DNA from: Shigella phage ESh4
Reading direction: 5' to 3' (one strand)
DNA: 51,077 nt
Sequence record: ON528718
The notes beneath the pieces were generated by a model, which did no database searches, was not told the DNA's origin, and saw nothing but the letters and a program-made list of their open reading frames with translations. The translations under genes and the position numbers were made by a program. Positions 7,296-45,370 of this stretch are shown here, in pieces; the stretch's first letter is position 1; each line of letters opens with the position of its first letter.

Positions 7296-8228
7296 ATGAA
7301 TAACGAAAACTTTATGGTTTATCAAAAGGAAGATGTTCTCCCATATATGCAAGGATTGTGGCGTGAGGCGCTACAAAGTATTTGCGGTCTTCCAAATGAA
7401 GTTTTTAACGGCAAGCATCAATCTTGCCCCCACTGCGGCGGAAAGGATCGCTTCAGATGGACGGATAAACTTGGCGATAAAAAAGGCGATGGCGGTGCGA
7501 TCTGCAACGTGTGCGGTAATGATACCGGAATTGGTTGGATCATGAAGCTAACAGGAGAACCTTACAGCGAAGTGATCAATATTTTGGGCCGTTTTCTTGG
7601 AAAAGTTCCTCAGGACTATAGAATCAAGGCAAATAAGCGAGTATCTCGTGATTCTGGTTATTCGTTTGGGAAACAGGCAAGCCATGAATGCTGCGAGCGC
7701 GTTATGTCAAAAACGCTAAAATTTGATCGCACGCCGTTAAGCACCTATGAAGGGATATATCCTCCTGAAGATGGTCATTATGAATGCGGCGTTAAAGATG
7801 GTCGATACATTCACGCGTTACCATGTTACCTGGTGCATTCCGATGATATTGATGATGAAATGTGCAATGTGCTTTTCATTGATGAAGAAGGTAAACAGTC
7901 TTTTCTCGCAAAGGACTACACGCGCGGGTCTGTTGTGAGAACAGGAAGCACCGATAAGACGATCTATCTTTGCGTTGACTGGATTGATGCGCAACACATT
8001 CACCTTGCAACTGGTCAGGAGGTTTGGGCCTGTTTTGATGCAACTAACATTGAGATTGTGGCTTACAGGTATAAAGGCAACAGAAGAATGCGAGTTGTCT
8101 GTAAGAGCACAGATCGTGACGCGATCATTGCTGCTGAGGAAAGAGGACTTGAAATTATGATGCCGATTAATGATAATTACAGGCAAGGGATAGAGAGGAA
8201 TGTTTACAAACCTGAATCTCTTCTCTAA
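7296..8228 (+). CDS. DNA primase (zinc-ribbon, P4-type primase family)
   Basis: CPHCGGKDRFRWTD...CNVCG zinc-ribbon typical of phage primases; start at ATG 7296 with GAGGTG RBS (track start 7194 overlaps previous gene). Confidence 0.7.
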   Translation: MNNENFMVYQKEDVLPYMQGLWREALQSICGLPNEVFNGKHQSCPHCGGKDRFRWTDKLGDKKGDGGAICNVCGNDTGIGWIMKLTGEPYSEVINILGRFLGKVPQDYRIKANKRVSRDSGYSFGKQASHECCERVMSKTLKFDRTPLSTYEGIYPPEDGHYECGVKDGRYIHALPCYLVHSDDIDDEMCNVLFIDEEGKQSFLAKDYTRGSVVRTGSTDKTIYLCVDWIDAQHIHLATGQEVWACFDATNIEIVAYRYKGNRRMRVVCKSTDRDAIIAAEERGLEIMMPINDNYRQGIERNVYKPESLL

Positions 8229-8243
8229 ATGTCACTGCTACTT

Positions 8244-8268
8244 TGCCCCGCATTGCGGGGTTTTTTTT
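8244..8268 (+). terminator. rho-independent terminator after primase
   Basis: CCCCGC-ATT-GCGGGG hairpin followed by nine T. Confidence 0.75.
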
Positions 8269-8326
8269 TGCCTTAGCAAATGCTATTATCTGCATTGACA
8301 TTAACATGCAACACGGGAGAAACCGC

Positions 8327-10171
8327 ATGGCAATTTACAGAACCGGACAAGCGTCAATGGACGCTCAAGGTTATATCACTGGATACGACACGAAATGGCG
8401 AGAGCAACTAACGCTCATTCGCCCTGGTGCAACAATCTTTTTCATTGATGCACCATTTCAAGCGGCTGTGATCAGTGAAGTTATCAGCGATACACAAATA
8501 CGCGCTATCACAACTGGCGGCGCTGAAATTGGTAGAAGCAACTACATTATTTTGCTGCATGACTCAATCACTGTTGATGGCCTGGCGCAAGATGTTGCGG
8601 AAACTCTTCGCTACTACCAAAGCAAAGAAACTAAGATCGAGGAAGCTATTGAATTTTTCAAAAACTTTGACCTAAAACACTTGGAAGATCTGGCTAATCA
8701 GGTTAAAGGTGATGCAGAGAAAACGGCAGATGATCGTGCTGCTACTGAACAACTGAAAAACGACACTCAACAGATAAAGGATTCTGCTGTTGCTGAAACA
8801 AACCAGATTAAAGTAGACACTGACGCAATCAAGGAGCAAACGCAACAGATTAAAGATTCTGCGATAACGGAAGTTAATTCCGCACGCGATCAAGGTGTTT
8901 TAGCTGTAAACCAGACTAAAGATCAGGCTGTTTCAGAAATGAATCAGATAAAGGGTGATGTTTCGAATCTGAAAAACGAAGCTATTTCAGCAAGGGATTC
9001 CGCACAGCAATACATGAATGGCGCTCAGGCTGCAAATAGCGCCGCTGAAACTGCAAAAAACGGAGCTGTTACTGCGCGAAATGAGGCTGAAGAATTTGCT
9101 AAAGGCCTTAACGCTGAAAATCTGCTTAGAAAAGATGCGAACCTTTCAGATCTGTCTAACGTTGAAATTGCTCGTAAAAACTTAAAAGTACAGTCCGTTT
9201 ATAGTAAAGATCCAGCGACTAATTCAGATCCAGGGGACTATAATTCTTTCAGAAATCCAAATGAGTCGTATGAACTACGAATATCAAATAACGGAAATTG
9301 GTTAGTGGCTAATAATCAAGATGATTCAGTTTCTGCGCTATCTATTGATGCAGGTGGTACTGGAGCGTCGAATGCTTCTGACGCAAGGAAAAATATTGGA
9401 TTAAGCAATACAGATCATGTTTCATTTGAAGGAGTTAACGCAGCAAACGGTTTCTCTTGTACCGTTAGATCTAGCCCGTGGAGTGTTGGATATGATAACG
9501 CGTCGTTTTCAGGTGGATTGATATTCAATAACGATCATGGTTACGTGCCTATAATTTACGGTGGAACACAATCTACATCAGGTTACAGATTAAGGATGGG
9601 GATGGGCGTCCTTCCAAGCGGGAATACAAGCTGGCCTATGGGATTGATTCAAATCCTCGGAGACGACACATACTGGCGCGTGTTTGCGCTAGGTTACGAT
9701 GGGAATCTTCAAACCTGGACTTCAGAATCAGGCGGATGGACTGGTTCTTACGATTTTGCAAAAAATCCAACGTCTGACAGAGATCTGAAAAAAGACATCG
9801 TTTATACGGATGGAAAAGAAAGTTACGATCGCGTAATGCAATGGCTTCCGACAATGTTTAAGTATAAGCGAGATGATGTTCAGCGTTACGGACTGATTGC
9901 TCAAGACATGTTAAAAATCGATCCTCAATATGTGAAACTTGTACAAGGATCACCAGTATTTGAGGATGTGATCGGGGTTGATGACAATGGTGAAGAATAC
10001 ATTGATCGTCAGATTGAAACTGACAGAAATGATGATACATTGGCGCTTGATAGCAACGTTATGCTAACTGATATGGCTTGCGCTATGGTTTACATGGGAG
10101 GAATGATCGAAAAACAGCAAAAGGAGATAGACGAATTAAAGGCGGCTGTTGCTGCACTGCTCAATAAATAA
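8327..10171 (+). CDS. tail fibre protein with C-terminal intramolecular chaperone (peptidase S74-like) domain
   Basis: Repeated ...QQIKDSA... fibrous segments; C-terminal region (DLKKDIVYTDG...YGLIAQDM...LDSNVMLTDMACAMVYM...coiled coil) resembles the autoproteolytic chaperone domain of T5 pb1/endosialidase; ATG 8327 with GGGAGA RBS. Confidence 0.65.
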   Translation: MAIYRTGQASMDAQGYITGYDTKWREQLTLIRPGATIFFIDAPFQAAVISEVISDTQIRAITTGGAEIGRSNYIILLHDSITVDGLAQDVAETLRYYQSKETKIEEAIEFFKNFDLKHLEDLANQVKGDAEKTADDRAATEQLKNDTQQIKDSAVAETNQIKVDTDAIKEQTQQIKDSAITEVNSARDQGVLAVNQTKDQAVSEMNQIKGDVSNLKNEAISARDSAQQYMNGAQAANSAAETAKNGAVTARNEAEEFAKGLNAENLLRKDANLSDLSNVEIARKNLKVQSVYSKDPATNSDPGDYNSFRNPNESYELRISNNGNWLVANNQDDSVSALSIDAGGTGASNASDARKNIGLSNTDHVSFEGVNAANGFSCTVRSSPWSVGYDNASFSGGLIFNNDHGYVPIIYGGTQSTSGYRLRMGMGVLPSGNTSWPMGLIQILGDDTYWRVFALGYDGNLQTWTSESGGWTGSYDFAKNPTSDRDLKKDIVYTDGKESYDRVMQWLPTMFKYKRDDVQRYGLIAQDMLKIDPQYVKLVQGSPVFEDVIGVDDNGEEYIDRQIETDRNDDTLALDSNVMLTDMACAMVYMGGMIEKQQKEIDELKAAVAALLNK

Positions 10172-39729: not shown

Positions 39730-39968
39730 TTTTTGACAACCAGCAAACGCAGTTTGTAAGGTCGGAACTTGTGCAACTTTTTAGCGTACTCACGCGCTTC
39801 ACTGTAGCTATTGAACTCCATAGCCCAAAAGCCGAAAGCGTCATCCGTCAGATATTCCCAATCGCCACTGATAACGCGGCGGCGTTGCAGGTAATAAATC
39901 TTGCATTCTGTGCAAGCAACGATCCGGTATTCAGGTTTAAAGATTCGTTTTAGTGCGTTAAAAACCAT
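39705..39968 (-). CDS. hypothetical protein (87 aa)
   Basis: ORF track. Confidence 0.4.
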   Translation of the reverse strand: MVFNALKRIFKPEYRIVACTECKIYYLQRRRVISGDWEYLTDDAFGFWAMEFNSYSEAREYAKKLHKFRPYKLRLLVVKKCEVWDHV

Positions 39969-40081
39969 AGTGCGGCCCTCACTGAATAAATAACTAAGAG
40001 AATCAAGAATAACACAATCATGATTTCATGAAAATCAAATGGCGGCTTTGGATTTGTTGCGTTGTTGTTATTTCCCAGCAT
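39950..40081 (-). CDS. small membrane protein (43 aa, trimmed from track ORF)
   Basis: ATG 40081 with AAGGGA RBS; C-terminal TMD (IMIVLFLILLVIYSV). Confidence 0.3.
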   Translation of the reverse strand: MLGNNNNATNPKPPFDFHEIMIVLFLILLVIYSVRAALWFLTH

Positions 40082-40472
40082 TTCGCGCAATCCCTTTGTA
40101 CATGACGTAAAAATCATTACCAGGCTTTTTGAACTTGATCGCATTTCGCACAAGTCGGCGCATACGTCGCGCATCGTATCGCGCTCGCTGAAATGGCATT
40201 TTCATTGTCTTAACATGGCAGCCGCGATGATCGCTGATTCGCTTAAGCTCAATCAAAACTCCTTGAGTCGCCACCACACAATAATGATCAAAGCCAAGTC
40301 GTCGAGTAATGATATAGCCATTCTTGATGCGTGGTCGGTTAAACTCTTTTAACGATCCGATATAGCGATCGGAAGCCGTTACAATCTCACCTTTACGAAT
40401 GCCGCATCGCTCATCATACACCCAGGTTACAACAAATTTTGTGCCTACGCGGATTTTGTGAAGATCTAACAT
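40068..40472 (-). CDS. hypothetical protein (134 aa)
   Basis: ATG 40472 with AAAGGA RBS, 30 nt downstream of TATAAT of unit 40503-40548. Confidence 0.5.
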   Translation of the reverse strand: MLDLHKIRVGTKFVVTWVYDERCGIRKGEIVTASDRYIGSLKEFNRPRIKNGYIITRRLGFDHYCVVATQGVLIELKRISDHRGCHVKTMKMPFQRARYDARRMRRLVRNAIKFKKPGNDFYVMYKGIARNAGK

Positions 40473-40502
40473 GTTCAAGTCCTTTCGTTGATTGGTGTTT
40501 GC

Positions 40503-40548
40503 ATTATAGCGAGGCATTGCGCCCCGCTTTTAGCAATTCGTGCTATTT
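40503..40548 (-). promoter_or_regulatory. conserved promoter-like unit (variant)
   Basis: Sense AAATAGCACGAATTGCTAAAAG + 22 bp + TATAAT; kinase stop TAG inside element. Confidence 0.55.
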
Positions 40549-41133
40549 GATCTTGATGTGTTGCCACTGGACCGTTTTGATGATCTCGTCAACAGTTTTT
40601 TCTGGCTCGCCATCAATCATTGTGAAGTCGTAATGTTTGACGCGGTAATGGTATCCGCTCAGGTCAATATAGTTTCGTGAATCGCCATCAAAAGTGAATC
40701 CCTCGCGATGCAGTCGGCAAATGTGAACCTCATGGCCTGCCTTAACTAGCGGCTTGATTTCCTCAGGGAATCCGCCGTCACTAATTACAACAGCTAAATC
40801 TCTGTACATCTCGTGTACTTGCTCAACCATGCGATTTCCGAAATATTGCTTGCCAAAAGCTGGCTTCATAACTTCTTCGCTAATCCAGATCATGAACTGG
40901 CGAGGAGACTTGCCTTGCAAGATTGCTTGAGGCTTTTCTTTCTGCTCGCGGTCGTTATACAGATCAATGAACTCGTCATATCGGTAAACGCCAAGCATGG
41001 AAAACGCAATATCAAACATAGGCTGTTTAAACGACGCTTTAACCGCTGCGTAACGATGGCCCGTTAGGTATGCCGCAAGAGTATCCTTGCCAACTCCTGG
41101 CGGTCCGTTAAGGATGATAATGTCGCGTTTCAT
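40543..41133 (-). CDS. deoxynucleoside monophosphate kinase-like P-loop kinase
   Basis: Walker A GPPGVGKDT (GKDT as in T4 gp1 dNMP kinase), size about 200 aa; start set at ATG 41133. Confidence 0.55.
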   Translation of the reverse strand: MKRDIIILNGPPGVGKDTLAAYLTGHRYAAVKASFKQPMFDIAFSMLGVYRYDEFIDLYNDREQKEKPQAILQGKSPRQFMIWISEEVMKPAFGKQYFGNRMVEQVHEMYRDLAVVISDGGFPEEIKPLVKAGHEVHICRLHREGFTFDGDSRNYIDLSGYHYRVKHYDFTMIDGEPEKTVDEIIKTVQWQHIKIK

Positions 41134-41134
41134 A

Positions 41135-41272
41135 TTAGTTGTCTCCATATCGGCTTGAATGTTTACCTGGGTGCTGGCGCTTCTTGCGATAGCGTTGATT
41201 CATCTCGCGGTGCTCGTCGTAGCTGTAGCGCTTCTTCTTTGTTACGATTTTTTCGAAGTTTCGCATCTTCAT
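41135..41272 (-). CDS. small basic protein (45 aa, below track cutoff)
   Basis: ATG 41272 with AGGAGA RBS; MKMRNFEKIVTKKKRYSYDEHREMNQRYRKKRQ... Confidence 0.3.
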   Translation of the reverse strand: MKMRNFEKIVTKKKRYSYDEHREMNQRYRKKRQHPGKHSSRYGDN

Positions 41273-41327
41273 GATCTCCTGTTGTTATCTCAATATAGCG
41301 CACTGCATGAATGCGCTATAGCAAGAA

Positions 41328-41513
41328 TCACCACTTAAAGCCGCTTTCATCCCGCACAATCTGGTAAAGCGCCACCCAAAACCACACAAACCAGAACATC
41401 AGAACAAGAGGCTGATCTTTATCAGTGCAATCACACTCTTTAACCAATGTTAGGGAGATGAATAAACCTGAAATATAAAAGAAAACCACTAAAAATACAA
41501 GTAACCAAATCAT
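41328..41513 (-). CDS. small membrane protein (61 aa)
   Basis: Two TMDs (MIWLLVFLVVFFYISGLFISL, LVLMFWFVWFWVALY). Confidence 0.4.
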   Translation of the reverse strand: MIWLLVFLVVFFYISGLFISLTLVKECDCTDKDQPLVLMFWFVWFWVALYQIVRDESGFKW

Positions 41514-41773
41514 TTGTTGACTCCTTCAATTACCAGCGTGTAAAGCAGAACTGGATTTTGCATGTCGCGGCGGCGCGGCTCTAGTGGCGAATCGTTCCAT
41601 GCACATTTCCCGTTTGCCACAATATGACCCACCAAGTCACTAAGTTTTGAGATTCCATCTCGACTGATAACATTGTACCCAATATCCTCGCCGTCAATAG
41701 AATGGATAGCAAAGAAGCTCGGCGCACCATCAATCCTGTCTACTGCTTTGAAAAACTCAACTTTATTAGCCAT
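41510..41773 (-). CDS. hypothetical protein (87 aa)
   Basis: ORF downstream of promoter-like unit 41805-41851. Confidence 0.5.
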   Translation of the reverse strand: MANKVEFFKAVDRIDGAPSFFAIHSIDGEDIGYNVISRDGISKLSDLVGHIVANGKCAWNDSPLEPRRRDMQNPVLLYTLVIEGVNK

Positions 41774-41804
41774 GATTTAATCCTCGTTTGTTGTAGATGG
41801 GCTT

Positions 41805-41851
41805 ACTATACCGAAAGCCCGATAATCTGTTTTTGCAAAAAGTGCTATTTT
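41805..41851 (-). promoter_or_regulatory. conserved promoter-like unit (variant TTGCAA)
   Basis: Sense AAAATAGCACTTTTTGCAAAAAC + 22 bp + TATAGT; upstream gene stop TAG inside element. Confidence 0.5.
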
Positions 41852-42384
41852 AATTCATCCACGCCGTGCGATTGGATGTGATTATGTGGCTTGTCGTATT
41901 CCGTGACCTGATAGGTTGTGATTCCCAGGCTGCGGAAGTGCTTAACCACGTTCGGCGAATCATCAAAAGCGCACACAATGTTTTCCAGTCCGATAGCGCG
42001 CAAGACTTCTTCTTTGATGATTGTGTCTTTGCGATTGTCTTCCTTGCGGCGCATGATTAACGCATCGTACTTGATGCCGTTTTCGTTAAGCCATTTGCAG
42101 GTGTCCTCCATCACTTCATCGCTACGTCCGGTCAGGATAACCACGGCAAATCCTGACATCCACAATCCGTTAACCACTGCAACCGTGCTTTTAATCGGCG
42201 AATCTCCAACAGCCGCTTTATTGAACTCAGACCAGCTTTCTGTAAGGTGTAAATCTTCTGTCGGCAGCAGGTGCAAGCGATGCGTTCCGTCTGATAACGT
42301 TCCGTCCAGGTCAACGATAACAATCGGCTTGCTCGTGGAAAAATGGTATTTGCTGCCCCAAAGTTCAAATTCGTATTTTTTCAT
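41845..42384 (-). CDS. HAD-family phosphatase (polynucleotide kinase 3'-phosphatase-like)
   Basis: HAD motif I VIVDLDGTL, later SGR and RKD...KEE and DD signature resembling T4 Pnkp phosphatase domain; ATG 42384 with GGAG RBS. Confidence 0.6.
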   Translation of the reverse strand: MKKYEFELWGSKYHFSTSKPIVIVDLDGTLSDGTHRLHLLPTEDLHLTESWSEFNKAAVGDSPIKSTVAVVNGLWMSGFAVVILTGRSDEVMEDTCKWLNENGIKYDALIMRRKEDNRKDTIIKEEVLRAIGLENIVCAFDDSPNVVKHFRSLGITTYQVTEYDKPHNHIQSHGVDELK

Positions 42385-42566
42385 TTTACGCTCCATTTGT
42401 CGCCATCATATGTTGGATCATCAAGTTTTATCTCGCGTATTGTTACTTCGTCGTAACAATCCGGAAGCGTCTCAGCGTGCTGTTCTGCCTTATCAAATGC
42501 GCTGAAGGCTCCCTCAAAGTATTCTCCGTCGTAGTAAATATCACCATGCACAACGTAGACAATCAT
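42381..42566 (-). CDS. hypothetical protein (61 aa)
   Basis: ORF track, translationally coupled. Confidence 0.45.
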   Translation of the reverse strand: MIVYVVHGDIYYDGEYFEGAFSAFDKAEQHAETLPDCYDEVTIREIKLDDPTYDGDKWSVK

Positions 42567-42784
42567 TCTTTCACTTCCTCAAATTCAGCAATTACCATAG
42601 CGTACGCCATAACCTTAGTGCCTTCTCCGCCGTTCAGGAACATTCGATGCCCCTTACTATTGCTCACGTAAAAAGATCCGGTTGATGATTTCAACTTTTG
42701 CGCCATATAGATTTCACCAGGCTTGAACATTCCAGCACAACCATAGTTAACGGAAACGCATTTCATCTTCTTGTTAATGTACAT
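42563..42784 (-). CDS. hypothetical protein (73 aa, trimmed)
   Basis: Track start is TTG inside promoter unit; ATG 42784 with GAAGGGGA RBS lies 30 nt downstream of TATAAT. Confidence 0.45.
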   Translation of the reverse strand: MYINKKMKCVSVNYGCAGMFKPGEIYMAQKLKSSTGSFYVSNSKGHRMFLNGGEGTKVMAYAMVIAEFEEVKE

Positions 42785-42814
42785 CGTTTTATCCCCTTCG
42801 TTGAAAGTGAGGCC

Positions 42815-42859
42815 ATTATACCTGGCCCCGCATTTGAGTTTTAACAATTCGTGCTATTT
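42815..42859 (-). promoter_or_regulatory. conserved promoter-like unit (variant)
   Basis: Sense AAATAGCACGAATTGTTAAAAC + 21 bp + TATAAT with GGCC...GGCC dyad around -10. Confidence 0.55.
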
Positions 42860-43748
42860 ACACTTTGACCTTCCACTTAACCATCGTTCCGCGCTTGATG
42901 CTAATCTCACCAGCAACGGTACGGTTTTTAGCGCCGCCATAGTGAAGCAGAAGAATAACAACATCATCATGAATCTCGATCGTCTTTGGCTTTGCCGTCA
43001 CCTCAAACCACATACCATCATCAAGCTGAACGCCTTTTAGTGTGGCGGCAACTGGCATATCTTCAATGGCGCCCTGCGTTACGATTTCTTGATTGGCAAA
43101 GGCGCTCTTATCAATACGCCAGCCTCCAGGTGCTTTCATTTTAACGGCTGCATTGTGGATCTCCTCGCCAATGGTTTTTTGAATTGACGTCTTCCCGCCG
43201 CCGAATGGTGTTTCCCCAAACAAGTGTTTTGTAATGTCTTCCACGTAGTACACCTTATCTTCTTCATTGTGTGGATTGAATTTGTTATGAGCGTTGACAA
43301 AGAAATCAACCTTAAGCTCTGATTTCTGACCGTCGCTATAAACGCCGTTGTCTTGTGACGTATAGCGAATCGTTGAGTTACCAACCGTGCGGAATACGAT
43401 CGGATACTTGATGTTATCCACGCTTAAGCACCACAATTTTTTATAGTCGCAGGTTTTCATATCTACCGTATGAATCTCTGCGCGTTCCGGTGAGCGCACT
43501 GGCAACACCTGGCCTTTATATGGCTTGTAGTGAAAACATGTGTATCCTGGCATTGCGTAACCGTAGTCTCTGAGTGAGTTGTAGTGTTTATTGTGCGCTT
43601 CAATTAAGTGTTCAATCTCCATTTTTGAAACATCAGGCTTTCCGTATTCGTTAAACTTAGTGCATGTATTTTTGTCTGAAAACATGAAGTGACCAACGCC
43701 GCGAGATTCGAAGGTGATTGGGAATTTAATGTTAGCAAGTTTTAACAT
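42858..43748 (-). CDS. hypothetical protein (296 aa)
   Basis: Largest unassigned early ORF; CAGGAGAAATAACC RBS. Confidence 0.55.
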   Translation of the reverse strand: MLKLANIKFPITFESRGVGHFMFSDKNTCTKFNEYGKPDVSKMEIEHLIEAHNKHYNSLRDYGYAMPGYTCFHYKPYKGQVLPVRSPERAEIHTVDMKTCDYKKLWCLSVDNIKYPIVFRTVGNSTIRYTSQDNGVYSDGQKSELKVDFFVNAHNKFNPHNEEDKVYYVEDITKHLFGETPFGGGKTSIQKTIGEEIHNAAVKMKAPGGWRIDKSAFANQEIVTQGAIEDMPVAATLKGVQLDDGMWFEVTAKPKTIEIHDDVVILLLHYGGAKNRTVAGEISIKRGTMVKWKVKV

Positions 43749-43803
43749 GGTTATTTCTCCTGATTGGTTTAACTGGGCGACGCCGTGCCGCCCTATGTGA
43801 TTT

Positions 43804-43849
43804 ATTATGCCTGGTTATCGTTTTTGAGTTTTAACAAAAAATGCTATTT
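43804..43849 (-). promoter_or_regulatory. conserved promoter-like unit
   Basis: Sense AAATAGCATTTTTTGTTAAAAC + 22 bp + CATAAT. Confidence 0.55.
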
Positions 43850-44033
43850 AGAATTTTACCTCTTCCACAAGCTCAACCATTTTATAACCAAGCCGATAAG
43901 AGTCACCGAACAACAAGATCCCCATAAATTCATCGTGGATTATTGACTCTTTGCCAACCGTTCTAAGCTCGCCGTTGTGAATCACAGTATCGCCGATCTT
44001 GATTTCTGATTTATGGACTAATTTCGTTTTCAT
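43848..44033 (-). CDS. hypothetical protein (61 aa)
   Basis: ORF track; stop TAA abuts conserved element. Confidence 0.45.
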   Translation of the reverse strand: MKTKLVHKSEIKIGDTVIHNGELRTVGKESIIHDEFMGILLFGDSYRLGYKMVELVEEVKF

Positions 44034-44048
44034 TTATTCACCTGCTAA

Positions 44049-44234
44049 TTAAAAGAAAGCTACATAGTTTGCAATGCCTTTGGCGTCGTCGTTTGGCATT
44101 GCCTTTACAGCCAGGTCATAACCTGATTCTACCTTCTGCTTTGCTGTTTCTTCGTTGTAACCCCAGATAACTAGGATTTTAACTACGTTTTCTTTGTTCA
44201 GGACTTTAAGGTCTTTGGTGATGCGACGTGCCAT
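44049..44234 (-). CDS. hypothetical protein (61 aa, trimmed)
   Basis: ATG 44234 with GAGGAAAACAAAA RBS downstream of unit 44268-44313 (track M is TTG). Confidence 0.45.
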   Translation of the reverse strand: MARRITKDLKVLNKENVVKILVIWGYNEETAKQKVESGYDLAVKAMPNDDAKGIANYVAFF

Positions 44235-44267
44235 TTTTGTTTTCCTCAATCTCGTTTCGATGAGGCT

Positions 44268-44313
44268 ATTATGCCAGGCTTTGCACCTGGCGTTTTAACA
44301 AAAAGTGCTATTT
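44268..44313 (-). promoter_or_regulatory. conserved promoter-like unit with CCAGG/CCTGG hairpin
   Basis: Sense AAATAGCACTTTTTGTTAAAAC-GCCAGGTGCAAAGCCTGG-CATAAT, near-identical to unit 48478-48524. Confidence 0.55.
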
Positions 44314-44317
44314 CCGC

Positions 44318-44566
44318 TCAGAGTCCAACATTCTCCTCATCGAATGCAGCCACAAGCCTTGCAAATACAGGATCTCCAGGCATTTCAATTTCAATGACCT
44401 TGATTTCCCTCCCGCATAGGCTTGTGTAAATCTCGCTCGCATCAGATAGCATGTCGCTAAACTCCTGCGCGGTGATTTCACATGCGGTCAAGTGGAAATC
44501 AACCGGTTTGTTAAAGCCCACCTCATCAATTTTTTCCATCAGCTCATCAAGAGTAAGTTTGCTCAT
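44318..44566 (-). CDS. hypothetical protein (82 aa, trimmed)
   Basis: ATG 44566 with GAGGAG RBS, overlapping stop of upstream ORF. Confidence 0.45.
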   Translation of the reverse strand: MSKLTLDELMEKIDEVGFNKPVDFHLTACEITAQEFSDMLSDASEIYTSLCGREIKVIEIEMPGDPVFARLVAAFDEENVGL

Positions 44567-44567
44567 T

Positions 44568-45038
44568 TTATTTCTCCTCATCGTTAAGGTATGTTTCTTT
44601 AATGATCGCGTGAAAGTCTGCGATCGCCTTAGCAAGTGTTTCATATTCATCTGGCGAGTAGTTCGCTAGGTTTGGTGAGACTTTAAGCATCGACTCAGCA
44701 ACCTGGCGTTTTGCTTTCGCTACAGCCTTCTCAAGCGCGGCCTTGTTGTATACCCTGCGATTAGGCGCACTAACAATCGCCACATCAAAGTAATTTTCCC
44801 CGAAATATTTGTGATCAGGGCCGTAAGGTTTCTTTGAAACTGAAACCCTCCCTTTCTCCGCCACTTCTGGAACTCGCCCCATAATCTGACGCAGATATGA
44901 TCCGGCATTGCTGGCTGACTTCTTGCCCTCCAGGTGCTGCCTTACCCATCTTTCAGGTATCTGGATCGATTCGTGCAATCCAGATGCGAGCGCAGTAGCA
45001 ACCTTGCGAAGCTCATTTGTAAATACAGATTCACTCAT
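44568..45038 (-). CDS. hypothetical protein (156 aa), first gene of leftward early operon
   Basis: ORF with GAGAGGG RBS downstream of TTGACA-17-AATAAT promoter. Confidence 0.5.
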   Translation of the reverse strand: MSESVFTNELRKVATALASGLHESIQIPERWVRQHLEGKKSASNAGSYLRQIMGRVPEVAEKGRVSVSKKPYGPDHKYFGENYFDVAIVSAPNRRVYNKAALEKAVAKAKRQVAESMLKVSPNLANYSPDEYETLAKAIADFHAIIKETYLNDEEK

Positions 45039-45069
45039 GCTTTATACCCTCTCGTGATTCAGTGGCTGC

Positions 45070-45098
45070 ATTATTATTTACCATTCCTGGCGTGTCAA
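45070..45098 (-). promoter_or_regulatory. sigma70-like early promoter (TTGACA-17-AATAAT)
   Basis: Perfect -35 TTGACA on minus strand, 17-bp spacer, AATAAT; 30 nt upstream of ORF 44568-45038. Confidence 0.5.
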
Positions 45099-45229
45099 AT
45101 GTTTTTTATTGTTATTGGCAGTTTTTCAATGTTGTCTTTTCATAGCACAACAAGATTCTCGTTTTTCTCCTTATAAATCAATGTTATTTTGGCGTGTTAT
45201 CTAAAAATGCGCGGATTCGCCCCTACCCC

Positions 45230-45370
45230 ATATATACATACCTGCCAACACACAACCACATACAATCACCAAAAATACATCAGACATCAATATGACCACA
45301 TAACATACATAACAGATAGTAATTTATAGATACATATAAATAAATAATCCTTATTTTTTAGTATGTTATA
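45230..45370. repeat. low-complexity CA-rich / TA-rich tract
   Basis: ccaacacacaaccacatacaatcacc...cataacatacataacagatag...; shares the 13-mer acacaaccacata with region 15430-15620. Confidence 0.6.

What the first reader, a model, noticed from the sequence alone, without database searches (positions are those of the whole stretch)
40543..42384. Nucleotide kinase and PNK-type 3'-phosphatase encoded as separate early genes
A P-loop kinase with the GKDT Walker A variant characteristic of T4 dNMP kinase (40543-41133) and a HAD phosphatase whose motifs (DLDGTL, SGR, RKD..KEE, DD) resemble the phosphatase domain of T4 polynucleotide kinase (41845-42384) lie about 700 bp apart, separated by three small ORFs including two membrane peptides. 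In T4 the kinase and phosphatase are fused in Pnkp and work with RNA ligase to repair host-cleaved tRNA. Here the two activities are unlinked and no ligase is recognisable, although the 296-aa ORF 42858-43748 is unassigned. The pair may be an end-healing or nucleotide-salvage module.
Basis: partly seen in the sequence, partly recalled or inferred. Interest (0 to 1): 0.45.

Follow-up and report, generated by a model that had tools for sequence, protein, structure and literature searches.

The report
Phage dNMP kinase plus PNK-type phosphatase
These are two ordinary genes of a T1-like phage, a nucleotide (dNMP) kinase whose near-identical copy has already been tested in the lab and a stand-alone phosphatase related to half of T4 polynucleotide kinase; they form a conserved pair most likely used to recycle DNA building blocks, not a split RNA-repair enzyme.

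Summary
The window is Shigella phage ESh4, a T1-like Hanrivervirus. Both genes exist as described, on the minus strand: a 196-aa P-loop kinase (40543-41133) and a 179-aa HAD phosphatase (41845-42384).

**Kinase.** It is a dNMP kinase (DNK), not a polynucleotide kinase.
- It is 96% identical to the KarlJaspers DNK, which triggers the Kongming defence system.
- It is 46% identical to Rao1 DNK, which phosphorylates dAMP, dGMP, dCMP and dTMP in vitro.

**Phosphatase.** It belongs to Pfam HAD_PNKP. It keeps the catalytic residues of the T4 Pnkp 3'-phosphatase. It has no kinase domain.

**Linkage.**
- The phosphatase lies upstream of the kinase on the same strand in 70 of 80 related phage loci.
- The two are directly adjacent in about 21 of these loci.
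- They are fused into one protein in two metagenomic lineages.
- The Hanrivervirus layout with three small ORFs between them looks derived.

**Other points.**
- No ligase is recognisable.
- ORF 42858-43748 shows no ligase signature. Its fold could not be modelled.

**Verdict.** This is most likely a nucleotide-salvage cassette, and the phosphatase substrate is still untested. The finding is largely already known and of low to moderate interest.

The parts
40543..41133 (-). dNMP kinase (DNK), 196 aa, T4 gp1-like P-loop kinase
41080..41106 (-). Walker A / P-loop GPPGVGKDT (aa 10-18)
   Evidence: G15, K16, D17 and T18 are invariant in 26 homologues. The equivalent Lys15 of Rao1 DNK is needed for Kongming triggering.
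40759..40782 (-). SDGGFPEE motif (aa 118-125) after strand beta-3; invariant D119-G-G-F
   Evidence: Alignment A1, secondary structure, coordinates.
41845..42384 (-). Stand-alone HAD_PNKP-family phosphatase, 179 aa, no kinase domain
   Evidence: Pfam PF25109, 79.8 bits, E 2.9e-22. PHROG 415, E 4.5e-67. PDB hits Pnkp1 4xrp (3.9e-9) and T4 Pnkp 1ltq (1.3e-5). 98% identical to the KarlJaspers protein and 58% to Rao1 gp57.
42295..42312 (-). HAD motif I, DLDGTL (D25 nucleophile, D27 acid/base by homology to T4 D165/D167)
   Evidence: Residue roles in T4 Pnkp come from PMC3592404.
42124..42135 (-). HAD motif II, LTGR (T85 aligns with T4 S211, R87 with T4 R213)
42007..42036 (-). NRKDTIIKEE (D120 aligns with T4 D254, K124 with T4 K258, the motif III lysine)
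41953..41967 (-). HAD motif IV, FDDSP (D141/D142 align with T4 D277/D278)
41510..41773 (-). 87-aa soluble ORF lying between the phosphatase and the kinase
   Evidence: (PHROG 25318, unknown function). No such spacer exists in relatives where the two genes abut.
41328..41513 (-). 61-aa hydrophobic (membrane) peptide lying between the two genes; its start overlaps the stop of the 87-aa ORF
   Evidence: Maximum Kyte-Doolittle 2.68. PHROG 9755, E 7.7e-25, unknown function.
41135..41272 (-). 45-aa strongly basic ORF lying between the two genes; not a membrane peptide
   Evidence: 15 K+R in 45 aa. Weak Pfam Phage_1_1 hit, E 0.024, below the cut-off.
42858..43748 (-). 296-aa ORF of unknown function. 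It was assessed as a ligase candidate and is not part of the module
   Evidence: PHROG 7116, unknown function. No Pfam or NCBIfam hit. No KxDG motif. Internal duplication of aa 2-98 and 108-203. Present in 28 of 80 related loci. AlphaFold2 pLDDT 39.8.
45070..45098 (-). Sigma-70-like promoter match (TTGACA, 17 nt, AATAAT) at the head of the leftward gene run that contains the module
   Evidence: This is a consensus match only.

Best explanation
The two genes are a conserved nucleotide-salvage cassette of T1-like phages.

**Kinase (shown for homologues)**
- The downstream gene encodes a broad-specificity deoxynucleoside-monophosphate kinase (DNK).
- It uses ATP to convert the dNMPs released by DNA breakdown into dNDPs.
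- Host Ndk then converts these to dNTPs for phage replication.

**Phosphatase (inferred)**
- The upstream gene encodes a stand-alone Mg-dependent DxDxT (HAD) phosphomonoesterase of the same family as the 3'-phosphatase domain of T4 Pnkp.
- I infer that it works in the same pathway. It would remove 3'-phosphates from 3'-phosphorylated deoxynucleotides (3',5'-bisphosphates, 3'-dNMPs) or from 3'-phosphate-blocked DNA fragments.
- That would turn them into, or allow them to be degraded to, the 5'-dNMPs that DNK accepts.

**Status of each step**
- Shown here: family membership, conserved catalytic residues, and the gene linkage and fusion.
- Shown in the literature for homologues: dNMP kinase activity.
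- Inferred: the substrate of the phosphatase and its coupling to the kinase.
For: **Kinase**
- PHROG 139 'dNMP kinase', E 6.5e-51.
- hhalign against T4 gp1 gives probability 83% and E 9.5e-6, with shared GKDT, DRE and L-x-GKSP motifs.
- Viral structural neighbours are dNMP and phosphomevalonate kinases, none a polynucleotide kinase.
- The protein is 96% identical to QXV82329.1 of phage KarlJaspers. That is the exact protein tested as 'DNK' and found to trigger Kongming toxicity.
- It is 46% identical over its full length to Rao1 DNK. Rao1 DNK phosphorylates dAMP, dGMP, dCMP and dTMP in vitro, and its deletion lowers dATP during infection.
- More distant relatives sit beside dUTPase, thymidylate synthase, ribonucleotide reductase, DNA ligase and exonucleases.

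**Phosphatase**
- Pfam HAD_PNKP, 79.8 bits.
- Alignment to T4 Pnkp residues 201-298 conserves the counterparts of S211, R213, D254, K258, D277 and D278. Motif I (D165/D167) is also conserved. Residue roles are taken from PMC3592404.

**Coupling**
- The phosphatase is upstream of the kinase on the same strand in 70 of 80 loci, down to 44% kinase identity. The aligned segments are 21 nt or less apart in 21 loci.
- The stop and start overlap by 4 nt in Webervirus, where the order is exonuclease, HAD, DNK.
- The same trio is found in Rao1 as gp56-58.
- The pair is adjacent in Kagunavirus, after an Mre11-like nuclease.
- Natural HAD_PNKP-DNK fusion proteins exist: P0376 (403 aa, on 3 contigs) and P0383 (461 aa).
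- A 43%-identical stand-alone HAD sits directly after nrdB in a Krischvirus that also has a true pseT and rnlA.
- PMC13164509 independently notes the pair and suggests nucleotide supply.
Against: - No activity of the HAD protein has been measured for any member of this clade. Its family's characterised members act on polynucleotide ends.
- A source of 3'-phosphorylated deoxynucleotides in T1-infected cells is not established.
- The kinase occurs without the HAD in 10 of 80 loci and in Chaseviridae, Vequintavirus and Kuravirus. The kinase therefore does not need the phosphatase.
- Deleting dnk in Rao1 had no evident fitness cost, so salvage is not essential under laboratory conditions.
- Neighbourhoods rich in nucleases and ligase fit DNA-end processing as well as salvage.
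- In the fusion protein P0376 the counterpart of T4 D254 is Ser.
Confidence: 0.6

Rival explanations
1. End-healing module. The HAD protein removes 3'-phosphates (or 2',3'-cyclic phosphates) from broken DNA or RNA. The P-loop kinase has been recruited, by non-orthologous displacement of the Pnkp kinase, to phosphorylate the 5'-OH ends. A host ligase (LigA for DNA) then seals the break.
For: - HAD_PNKP phosphatases characterised so far are polynucleotide 3'-phosphatases, and the catalytic residues are conserved here.
- The pair is tightly linked and sometimes fused in the order phosphatase-kinase. From my own knowledge, this is the arrangement in mammalian PNKP.
- The cassette often follows a DNA-repair exonuclease.
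- In Chaseviridae the kinase gene overlaps a DNA ligase gene.
- No published test of these kinases on 5'-OH polynucleotides was found.
Against: - Homologues at 46% and 96% identity behave as free-dNMP kinases.
- No conserved acidic residue follows strand beta-2, where T4 Pnkp has its general base Asp35. The invariant residues there are K36, P38, M39 and F40.
- The phage has no ligase.
- From my own knowledge, E. coli RtcB would not need healed RNA ends.
Confidence: 0.17
2. Counter-defence role. The HAD protein protects a DNK-carrying phage from immunity that senses DNK or nucleotide signals. It would act like T5 Dmp, which depletes dAMP and blocks Kongming, or would dephosphorylate another immune nucleotide.
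For: - Phage DNKs trigger Kongming. Phage nucleotidases (Dmp) co-occur with DNKs and neutralise it.
- T5, Bas26 and VPG01 Dmp share the DLDGT-x5-HR signature with this HAD.
- Tight DNK-HAD linkage is what a trigger-antidote pair would show.
Against: - Rao1 carries the orthologous HAD (gp57, 58% identity) directly upstream of its DNK. Rao1 is nevertheless strongly restricted by Kongming, and it is rescued only when T5 Dmp is supplied in trans.
- T5 Dmp is not detectably in the same family. It has no Pfam hit, and hhalign gives probability 21% over 47 columns.
Confidence: 0.1
3. Deoxynucleoside salvage by phosphotransfer. The HAD enzyme acts as a nucleoside phosphotransferase, as class B acid phosphatases can, and makes 5'-dNMPs from deoxynucleosides. 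DNK then converts these to dNDPs. This would give the phage a route that E. coli lacks for dA, dG and dC.
For: - The HAD also passes the Pfam cut-off for Acid_phosphat_B (39.6 bits against 27).
- Fusion and adjacency with DNK fit two consecutive steps.
- A relative of the kinase is fused to a nucleoside 2-deoxyribosyltransferase domain in BFVD (rank 15).
Against: - The idea is purely inferential. The best family match is HAD_PNKP, not class B phosphatases.
- No phosphotransferase activity is known for the Pnkp-type clade.
Confidence: 0.06

Closest known systems
Phage DNKs of the Kongming study: Rao1 R1DNK (XGX96911.1) and KarlJaspers DNK (QXV82329.1) (bioRxiv 10.1101/2024.12.20.629578)
   Same: Same protein family and same length. 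All conserved motifs are shared (ILNGPPGxGKDT, SFKxPMF, DRxxKE, RQFMIWISE, DGGF, RLHRxGxTFxGDSR). Identity is 96% to KarlJaspers and 46% to Rao1. The upstream HAD partner is also the same.
   Different: The ESh4 protein itself has not been assayed. In ESh4 and KarlJaspers three or four small ORFs separate HAD and DNK. In Rao1 the two genes are 49 nt apart.
T4 gp1 deoxynucleoside monophosphate kinase (PDB 1DEK)
   Different: Identity is only 15-17%. The profile alignment covers the N-terminal 73 columns only. The window protein is 196 aa against 241 aa. According to the T4 record's annotation, gp1 accepts dTMP, dGMP and hm-dCMP but not dAMP or dCMP, whereas Rao1 DNK accepts all four dNMPs.
T4 polynucleotide kinase-phosphatase (Pnkp/PseT), C-terminal 3'-phosphatase domain; Capnocytophaga Pnkp1 (4xrp)
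   Same: Same Pfam family (HAD_PNKP). The DxDGT motif, S/T-G-R, the RKD...K motif and DD are conserved.
   Different: The window protein has no N-terminal Pnkp kinase domain and no partner ligase in the genome. The counterpart of T4 R279 is Ser. A 43%-identical stand-alone copy coexists with a true pseT in Krischvirus, which implies a separate role.
T5 Dmp deoxynucleoside-5'-monophosphatase (anti-Kongming factor)
   Same: Both are phage DxDGT phosphatases that co-occur with a DNK and act in dNMP metabolism. They share the DLDGT-x5-HR signature.
   Different: No family-level similarity was detected. T5 dmp lies in the pre-early terminal repeat. The Rao1 orthologue of this HAD does not protect against Kongming.

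Membership tests
gp1/DNK-type phage dNMP kinase | P-loop with the GK-D-T variant | tested here: met
   GPPGVGKDT at aa 10-18. G15, K16, D17 and T18 are invariant in 26 homologues. The same GKDT is found in T4 gp1.
gp1/DNK-type phage dNMP kinase | Fold closest to T4 gp1 among solved structures | tested here: met
gp1/DNK-type phage dNMP kinase | Sequence-profile membership | tested here: met
   PHROG 139, E 6.5e-51. hhalign against T4 gp1 gives probability 83%, E 9.5e-6. BLASTP against Rao1 DNK gives 5e-58. No Pfam or NCBIfam model matched beyond the P-loop, and PDB sequence searches did not reach 1DEK.
gp1/DNK-type phage dNMP kinase | ATP-dependent conversion of dNMP to dNDP | not testable with these tools
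   Published for Rao1 DNK in vitro (46% identity). Shown indirectly, as Kongming triggering, for the 96%-identical KarlJaspers protein.
T4 Pnkp-type polynucleotide 5'-kinase | General-base Asp (T4 Asp35) after strand beta-2, plus Arg126 | tested here: not met
   The segment after beta-2 (aa 30-33) has S34, K36, P38, M39 and F40 invariant or nearly so, with no conserved acidic residue. Residue roles come from PMC3592404. The positional equivalence was inferred by inspection, not from a structural alignment.
T4 Pnkp-type polynucleotide 5'-kinase | Structural or sequence proximity to Pnkp-type kinase domains | tested here: not met
T4 Pnkp-type polynucleotide 5'-kinase | Phosphorylation of 5'-OH DNA or RNA ends | not testable with these tools
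   No assay on polynucleotides was found in the papers read.
HAD_PNKP (DxDxT) 3'-phosphatase | Pfam PF25109 above the gathering score | tested here: met
   79.8 bits against a cut-off of 27.6, covering profile positions 3-140 of 143.
HAD_PNKP (DxDxT) 3'-phosphatase | Catalytic residues: Asp nucleophile and Asp acid/base (DxDxT), motif II Ser/Thr, motif III Lys, motif IV Asp | tested here: met
   D25 and D27 in DLDGT, T85 (aligned with S211), K124 (with K258) and D141/D142 (with D277/D278), from the alignment to 1ltq/5uj0. All are invariant in 16 homologues.
HAD_PNKP (DxDxT) 3'-phosphatase | Hydrolysis of 3'-phosphate from nucleotides or polynucleotides | not testable with these tools
   No biochemical data were found for any stand-alone member of this clade.
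Pnkp-ligase RNA or DNA repair (end-healing and sealing) system | A ligase encoded with the healing enzymes | tested here: not met
   No ligase domain in ORFs of at least 180 aa. None is annotated in JakobBernoulli. ORF296 has no KxDG motif and no family hit. Its fold is untestable.
T5 Dmp-type 5'-dNMPase (anti-Kongming) | Sequence family membership and protection from Kongming | tested here: not met
   hhalign probability 21%. No shared Pfam family. Rao1, which carries the orthologous HAD, is Kongming-sensitive and is rescued by T5 Dmp in trans.

The most novel reading that the evidence does not exclude
The HAD_PNKP-type phosphatase and DNK form a dedicated two-step enzyme pair, and in some phages a single fused polypeptide. 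The pair would act on mononucleotides rather than on polynucleotide ends. It would convert 3'-phosphorylated deoxynucleotides, or deoxynucleosides by phosphotransfer, into dNDPs. This would be a mononucleotide analogue of Pnkp and a phage salvage route that has not been described. It could also affect how much DNK-dependent signal reaches systems such as Kongming.
Probability: 0.3. Interest if true: 0.5.

Novelty: already known. Interest (0 to 1): 0.22.

Why it matters
- The kinase is of practical interest because DNKs of exactly this family are the viral trigger of the Kongming dITP immune pathway. ESh4-like phages should therefore be Kongming-sensitive.
- The public annotation of the HAD gene as 'polynucleotide kinase' or 'kinase-phosphatase' is misleading. 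The protein has only the phosphatase half.
- The open point is why a Pnkp-type phosphatase is so persistently linked, and occasionally fused, to a dNMP kinase. Answering that would assign a function to a gene present in thousands of phage genomes, and would show whether Pnkp-type phosphatases have a role in nucleotide metabolism.
- The point has precedent in the older, unresolved reports of T4 3'-phosphatase involvement in DNA metabolism (cited from my own knowledge, not checked here).

Tried and rejected
- **PDB sequence searches with the kinase.** Searches with the single sequence and with a 26-sequence profile returned only generic P-loop matches. The relationship to T4 gp1 appeared only through fold search and hhalign.
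- **ORF296 as a ligase.** The AlphaFold2 model built on 10 close homologues reached pLDDT 39.8, so no fold search was run. All 120 listed homologues were at least 83% identical, so no deeper alignment could be built. The fold question stays open. Only the absence of sequence signatures is shown.
- **T5 Dmp homology of the HAD.** Tested and rejected.
- **HAD as an anti-Kongming factor.** Considered unlikely because of the Rao1 phenotype.
- **Retron Eco2 paper.** It was retrieved by keyword and mentions PNK only as a reagent.
- **Rao1 taxonomy.** A search of the NAR 2026 paper for Rao1's taxonomy gave nothing. It was settled by reading the GenBank record.
- **Literature on the phosphatase.** A search for a defence-related role of the phosphatase found only genome-announcement annotations.
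Full report
**Identity of the window.** The 296-aa ORF at 42858-43748 is 100% identical to a protein of Shigella phage ESh4, whose contig is 51077 bp, the length of the window. The region 40000-44000 is 89-94% identical in DNA to Hanrivervirus phages (Drexlerviridae, Tempevirinae) such as vojen, egaa, JakobBernoulli, KarlJaspers and pSf-1. The window is therefore a complete T1-like phage genome. All genes discussed here are on the minus strand.

**Check of the observation.**
- The ORF listing gives 40543-41148 (201 aa) and 41845-42396 (183 aa).
They give the lengths seen in nearly all homologues and annotated relatives. The products are 196 and 179 aa.
- GPPGVGKDT, DLDGTL, NRKDTIIKEE and FDDSP are present.
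- The 711-nt spacer holds three ORFs of 87, 61 and 45 aa. Only the 61-aa ORF is hydrophobic. The 45-aa ORF is very basic and the 87-aa ORF is soluble. 'Two membrane peptides' is therefore wrong.
- A strong sigma-70-like site at 45098-45070 heads the leftward gene run. No terminator-like site lies on that strand. This fits one transcription unit but does not prove it. 'Early' expression was not tested.

**The kinase.**
- Pfam and NCBIfam detect only a P-loop. PDB sequence searches detect only generic P-loops.
- PHROGs places the protein in family 139, 'deoxynucleoside monophosphate kinase', at E 6.5e-51.
- An AlphaFold2 model from 26 homologues is confident (pLDDT 90.4, pTM 0.84).
- The next matches are adenylate kinase relatives and phosphomevalonate kinase. 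T4 Pnkp is absent from both lists.
- In BFVD the neighbours are dNMP and phosphomevalonate kinases.
- hhalign of the family profile against T4 gp1, taken from the T4 record, gives probability 83% and E 9.5e-6 across the P-loop to the L-x-GKSP motif.

**Published experiments on this kinase family.** The decisive evidence comes from the Kongming study (bioRxiv 10.1101/2024.12.20.629578).
- It shows that phage DNKs trigger that defence system.
- One tested trigger is the DNK of phage KarlJaspers, QXV82329.1. That protein is 96% identical to the window kinase.
- The study's model enzyme, Rao1 gp58 (R1DNK), is 46% identical over its full length, E 5e-58.
- R1DNK phosphorylates dAMP, dGMP, dCMP and dTMP, and weakly dIMP, with ATP. 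It loses its effect when the P-loop Lys is mutated. Its deletion moderately lowers dATP during infection without a fitness cost.
- The kinase is therefore a dNMP kinase of an experimentally characterised family.

**The phosphatase.**
- Pfam HAD_PNKP scores 79.8 bits against a cut-off of 27.6, covering almost the whole model. PHROG 415 scores E 4.5e-67.
- PDB searches hit only Pnkp-type phosphatases: Capnocytophaga Pnkp1 and T4 Pnkp.
- The alignment to T4 residues 201-298 pairs T85, R87, D120, K124, D141 and D142 with S211, R213, D254, K258, D277 and D278. DLDGT matches the D165/D167 motif. The roles of D165, D167, S211, K258 and D278 are taken from PMC3592404.
- All 120 listed relatives are 167-264 aa and carry HAD domains only. 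None has a kinase domain. The database names 'polynucleotide kinase' and 'kinase-phosphatase' overstate what is encoded.

**Linkage of the two genes.**
- I took 80 viral contigs that encode a relative of the kinase (44-98% identity). In 70 of them a homologue of the HAD lies upstream on the same strand. The aligned segments are 21 nt or less apart in 21 loci. They are 700-2200 nt apart in Hanrivervirus and its nearer relatives.
- In Webervirus the order is DNA-repair exonuclease, HAD, DNK (4-nt overlap), holin.
- Rao1 has the same trio as gp56-58. Its HAD is 58% identical to the window's.
- In Kagunavirus (Guernseyvirinae) the pair follows an Mre11-like nuclease and a calcineurin-like phosphoesterase.
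- The cassette therefore moves as a unit. The ESh4 layout looks like a cassette that has been split by small ORFs.
- A profile search of 1.84 billion representative proteins found 4164 relatives, mostly about 190 aa. It also found two proteins in which an N-terminal HAD_PNKP domain is fused to a C-terminal DNK. These are P0376 (403 aa, present on three contigs, one of 60.7 kb) and P0383 (461 aa).
- PMC13164509 had already noted that 'PNK' and 'dNMP kinase' genes follow the repair exonuclease in many Drexlerviridae, and it proposed a role in nucleotide supply.

**Limits of the linkage.**
- The kinase occurs without the HAD in 10 of 80 loci.
- More distant relatives also lack it. In these the kinase sits next to DNA ligase and dUTPase (Chaseviridae), to thymidylate synthase and ribonucleotide reductase (Vequintavirus), or to a 5'-3' exonuclease (Kuravirus).
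- A 43%-identical stand-alone HAD lies directly after nrdB in a Krischvirus that also has a true pseT and RNA ligase. This argues that the clade is not simply a substitute for Pnkp.

**Ligase question.**
- No ligase domain was found in any non-structural ORF of at least 180 aa.
- The 372-aa ORF at 1514-2632 is the 'DNA repair exonuclease' (PHROG 704).
- JakobBernoulli, a close relative (about 92% DNA identity across this region), has no annotated ligase.
- ORF296 belongs to an unannotated PHROG and has no KxDG motif. It contains an internal duplication. It is present in only 28 of 80 kinase loci.
- Its structure could not be modelled (pLDDT 39.8), so a ligase fold is not formally excluded.

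**Interpretation.**
- The best-supported reading is a nucleotide-salvage cassette. The kinase step is shown for homologues. The phosphatase step is inferred from family, conserved residues, gene context and fusion.
- The end-healing reading keeps some weight because the HAD family's known substrates are polynucleotide ends, and because the neighbours are nucleases. It would need the dNMP kinase to have a second activity for which there is no evidence.
- A Dmp-like anti-Kongming role is unlikely. Rao1 carries the HAD yet is restricted by Kongming and is rescued by T5 Dmp supplied in trans. T5 Dmp is not detectably of the same family.

**Novelty and verdict.** The genome, both gene families, the kinase's activity and even the pairing are already in the literature or the databases. 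What remains unknown is the substrate of the phosphatase and the reason for its coupling to DNK. The natural HAD-DNK fusions seen here did not appear in the papers I read. I score the finding as already known, of low to moderate interest.

Noticed in passing
P0376 (L090:6001-7212) and P0383 (L091:498-1883): These are natural single-polypeptide fusions of an N-terminal HAD_PNKP domain and a C-terminal DNK, joined by a 65-110 aa linker that shares a GPELHG motif. In P0376 the counterpart of T4 D254 is Ser. A PAPS-reductase-like gene lies two genes downstream in L090.
   Followed up: partly
window 41845 (HAD stop) to 41773; L001:4748-5461; L002:4846-5007; L093:2043-2204: The 3' end of the HAD gene varies. 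Many relatives have a 236-237 aa form with a C-terminal extension of about 55 aa. vojen and KarlJaspers have that segment as a separate 53-aa ORF. ESh4 lacks it altogether.
   Followed up: partly
window 42858-43748 (-): The 296-aa ORF contains an internal duplication (aa 2-98 against 108-203, 24% identity, E 1e-6). Its distribution among related phages is patchy (28 of 80 loci). Its function is unknown.
   Followed up: partly
window 41135-41272 (-): This 45-aa ORF is very basic (15 K+R) and overlaps the longer ATG-41148 reading of the kinase ORF. It has a weak, sub-threshold match to T7 gene 1.1 protein (Pfam Phage_1_1, E 0.024). In JakobBernoulli the gene immediately upstream of the kinase is annotated 'putative DNA-binding protein'.
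   Followed up: no
window 42381-42566 (-): This small acidic DUF7336 protein (Pfam E 1.1e-16) lies directly upstream of the HAD gene. Its stop falls just before the HAD start codon.
   Followed up: no
search results: Between 20 and 39 GenBank records named 'Campylobacter phage', with host Campylobacter jejuni, carry near-identical T1-like coliphage sequence. This looks like contamination or mislabelled hosts.
   Followed up: no
L083:7929-8606: In one viral contig the kinase is split into two adjacent ORFs (7929-8210 and 8214-8606). This is either a pseudogene or an assembly error.
   Followed up: no
L094:124-858 (T5 dmp) and the Dmp sequences in the Kongming supplement: T5, Bas26 and VPG01 Dmp carry a DLDGT-x5-HR signature like HAD_PNKP proteins, yet they match no Pfam family at E up to 0.1. 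Their place within the HAD superfamily seems unassigned.
   Followed up: partly
L084:3250-4624 (Escherichia phage MLP1, Chaseviridae): A 38%-identical relative of the kinase overlaps by 8 nt the end of a small DNA ligase gene and is followed by dUTPase.
   Followed up: no
window 45070-45098 (-): This is a near-consensus sigma-70 promoter match (TTGACA, 17 nt, AATAAT) at the head of the leftward run of small ORFs. It is the only site in 39900-45300 with 11 of 12 matches.
   Followed up: no
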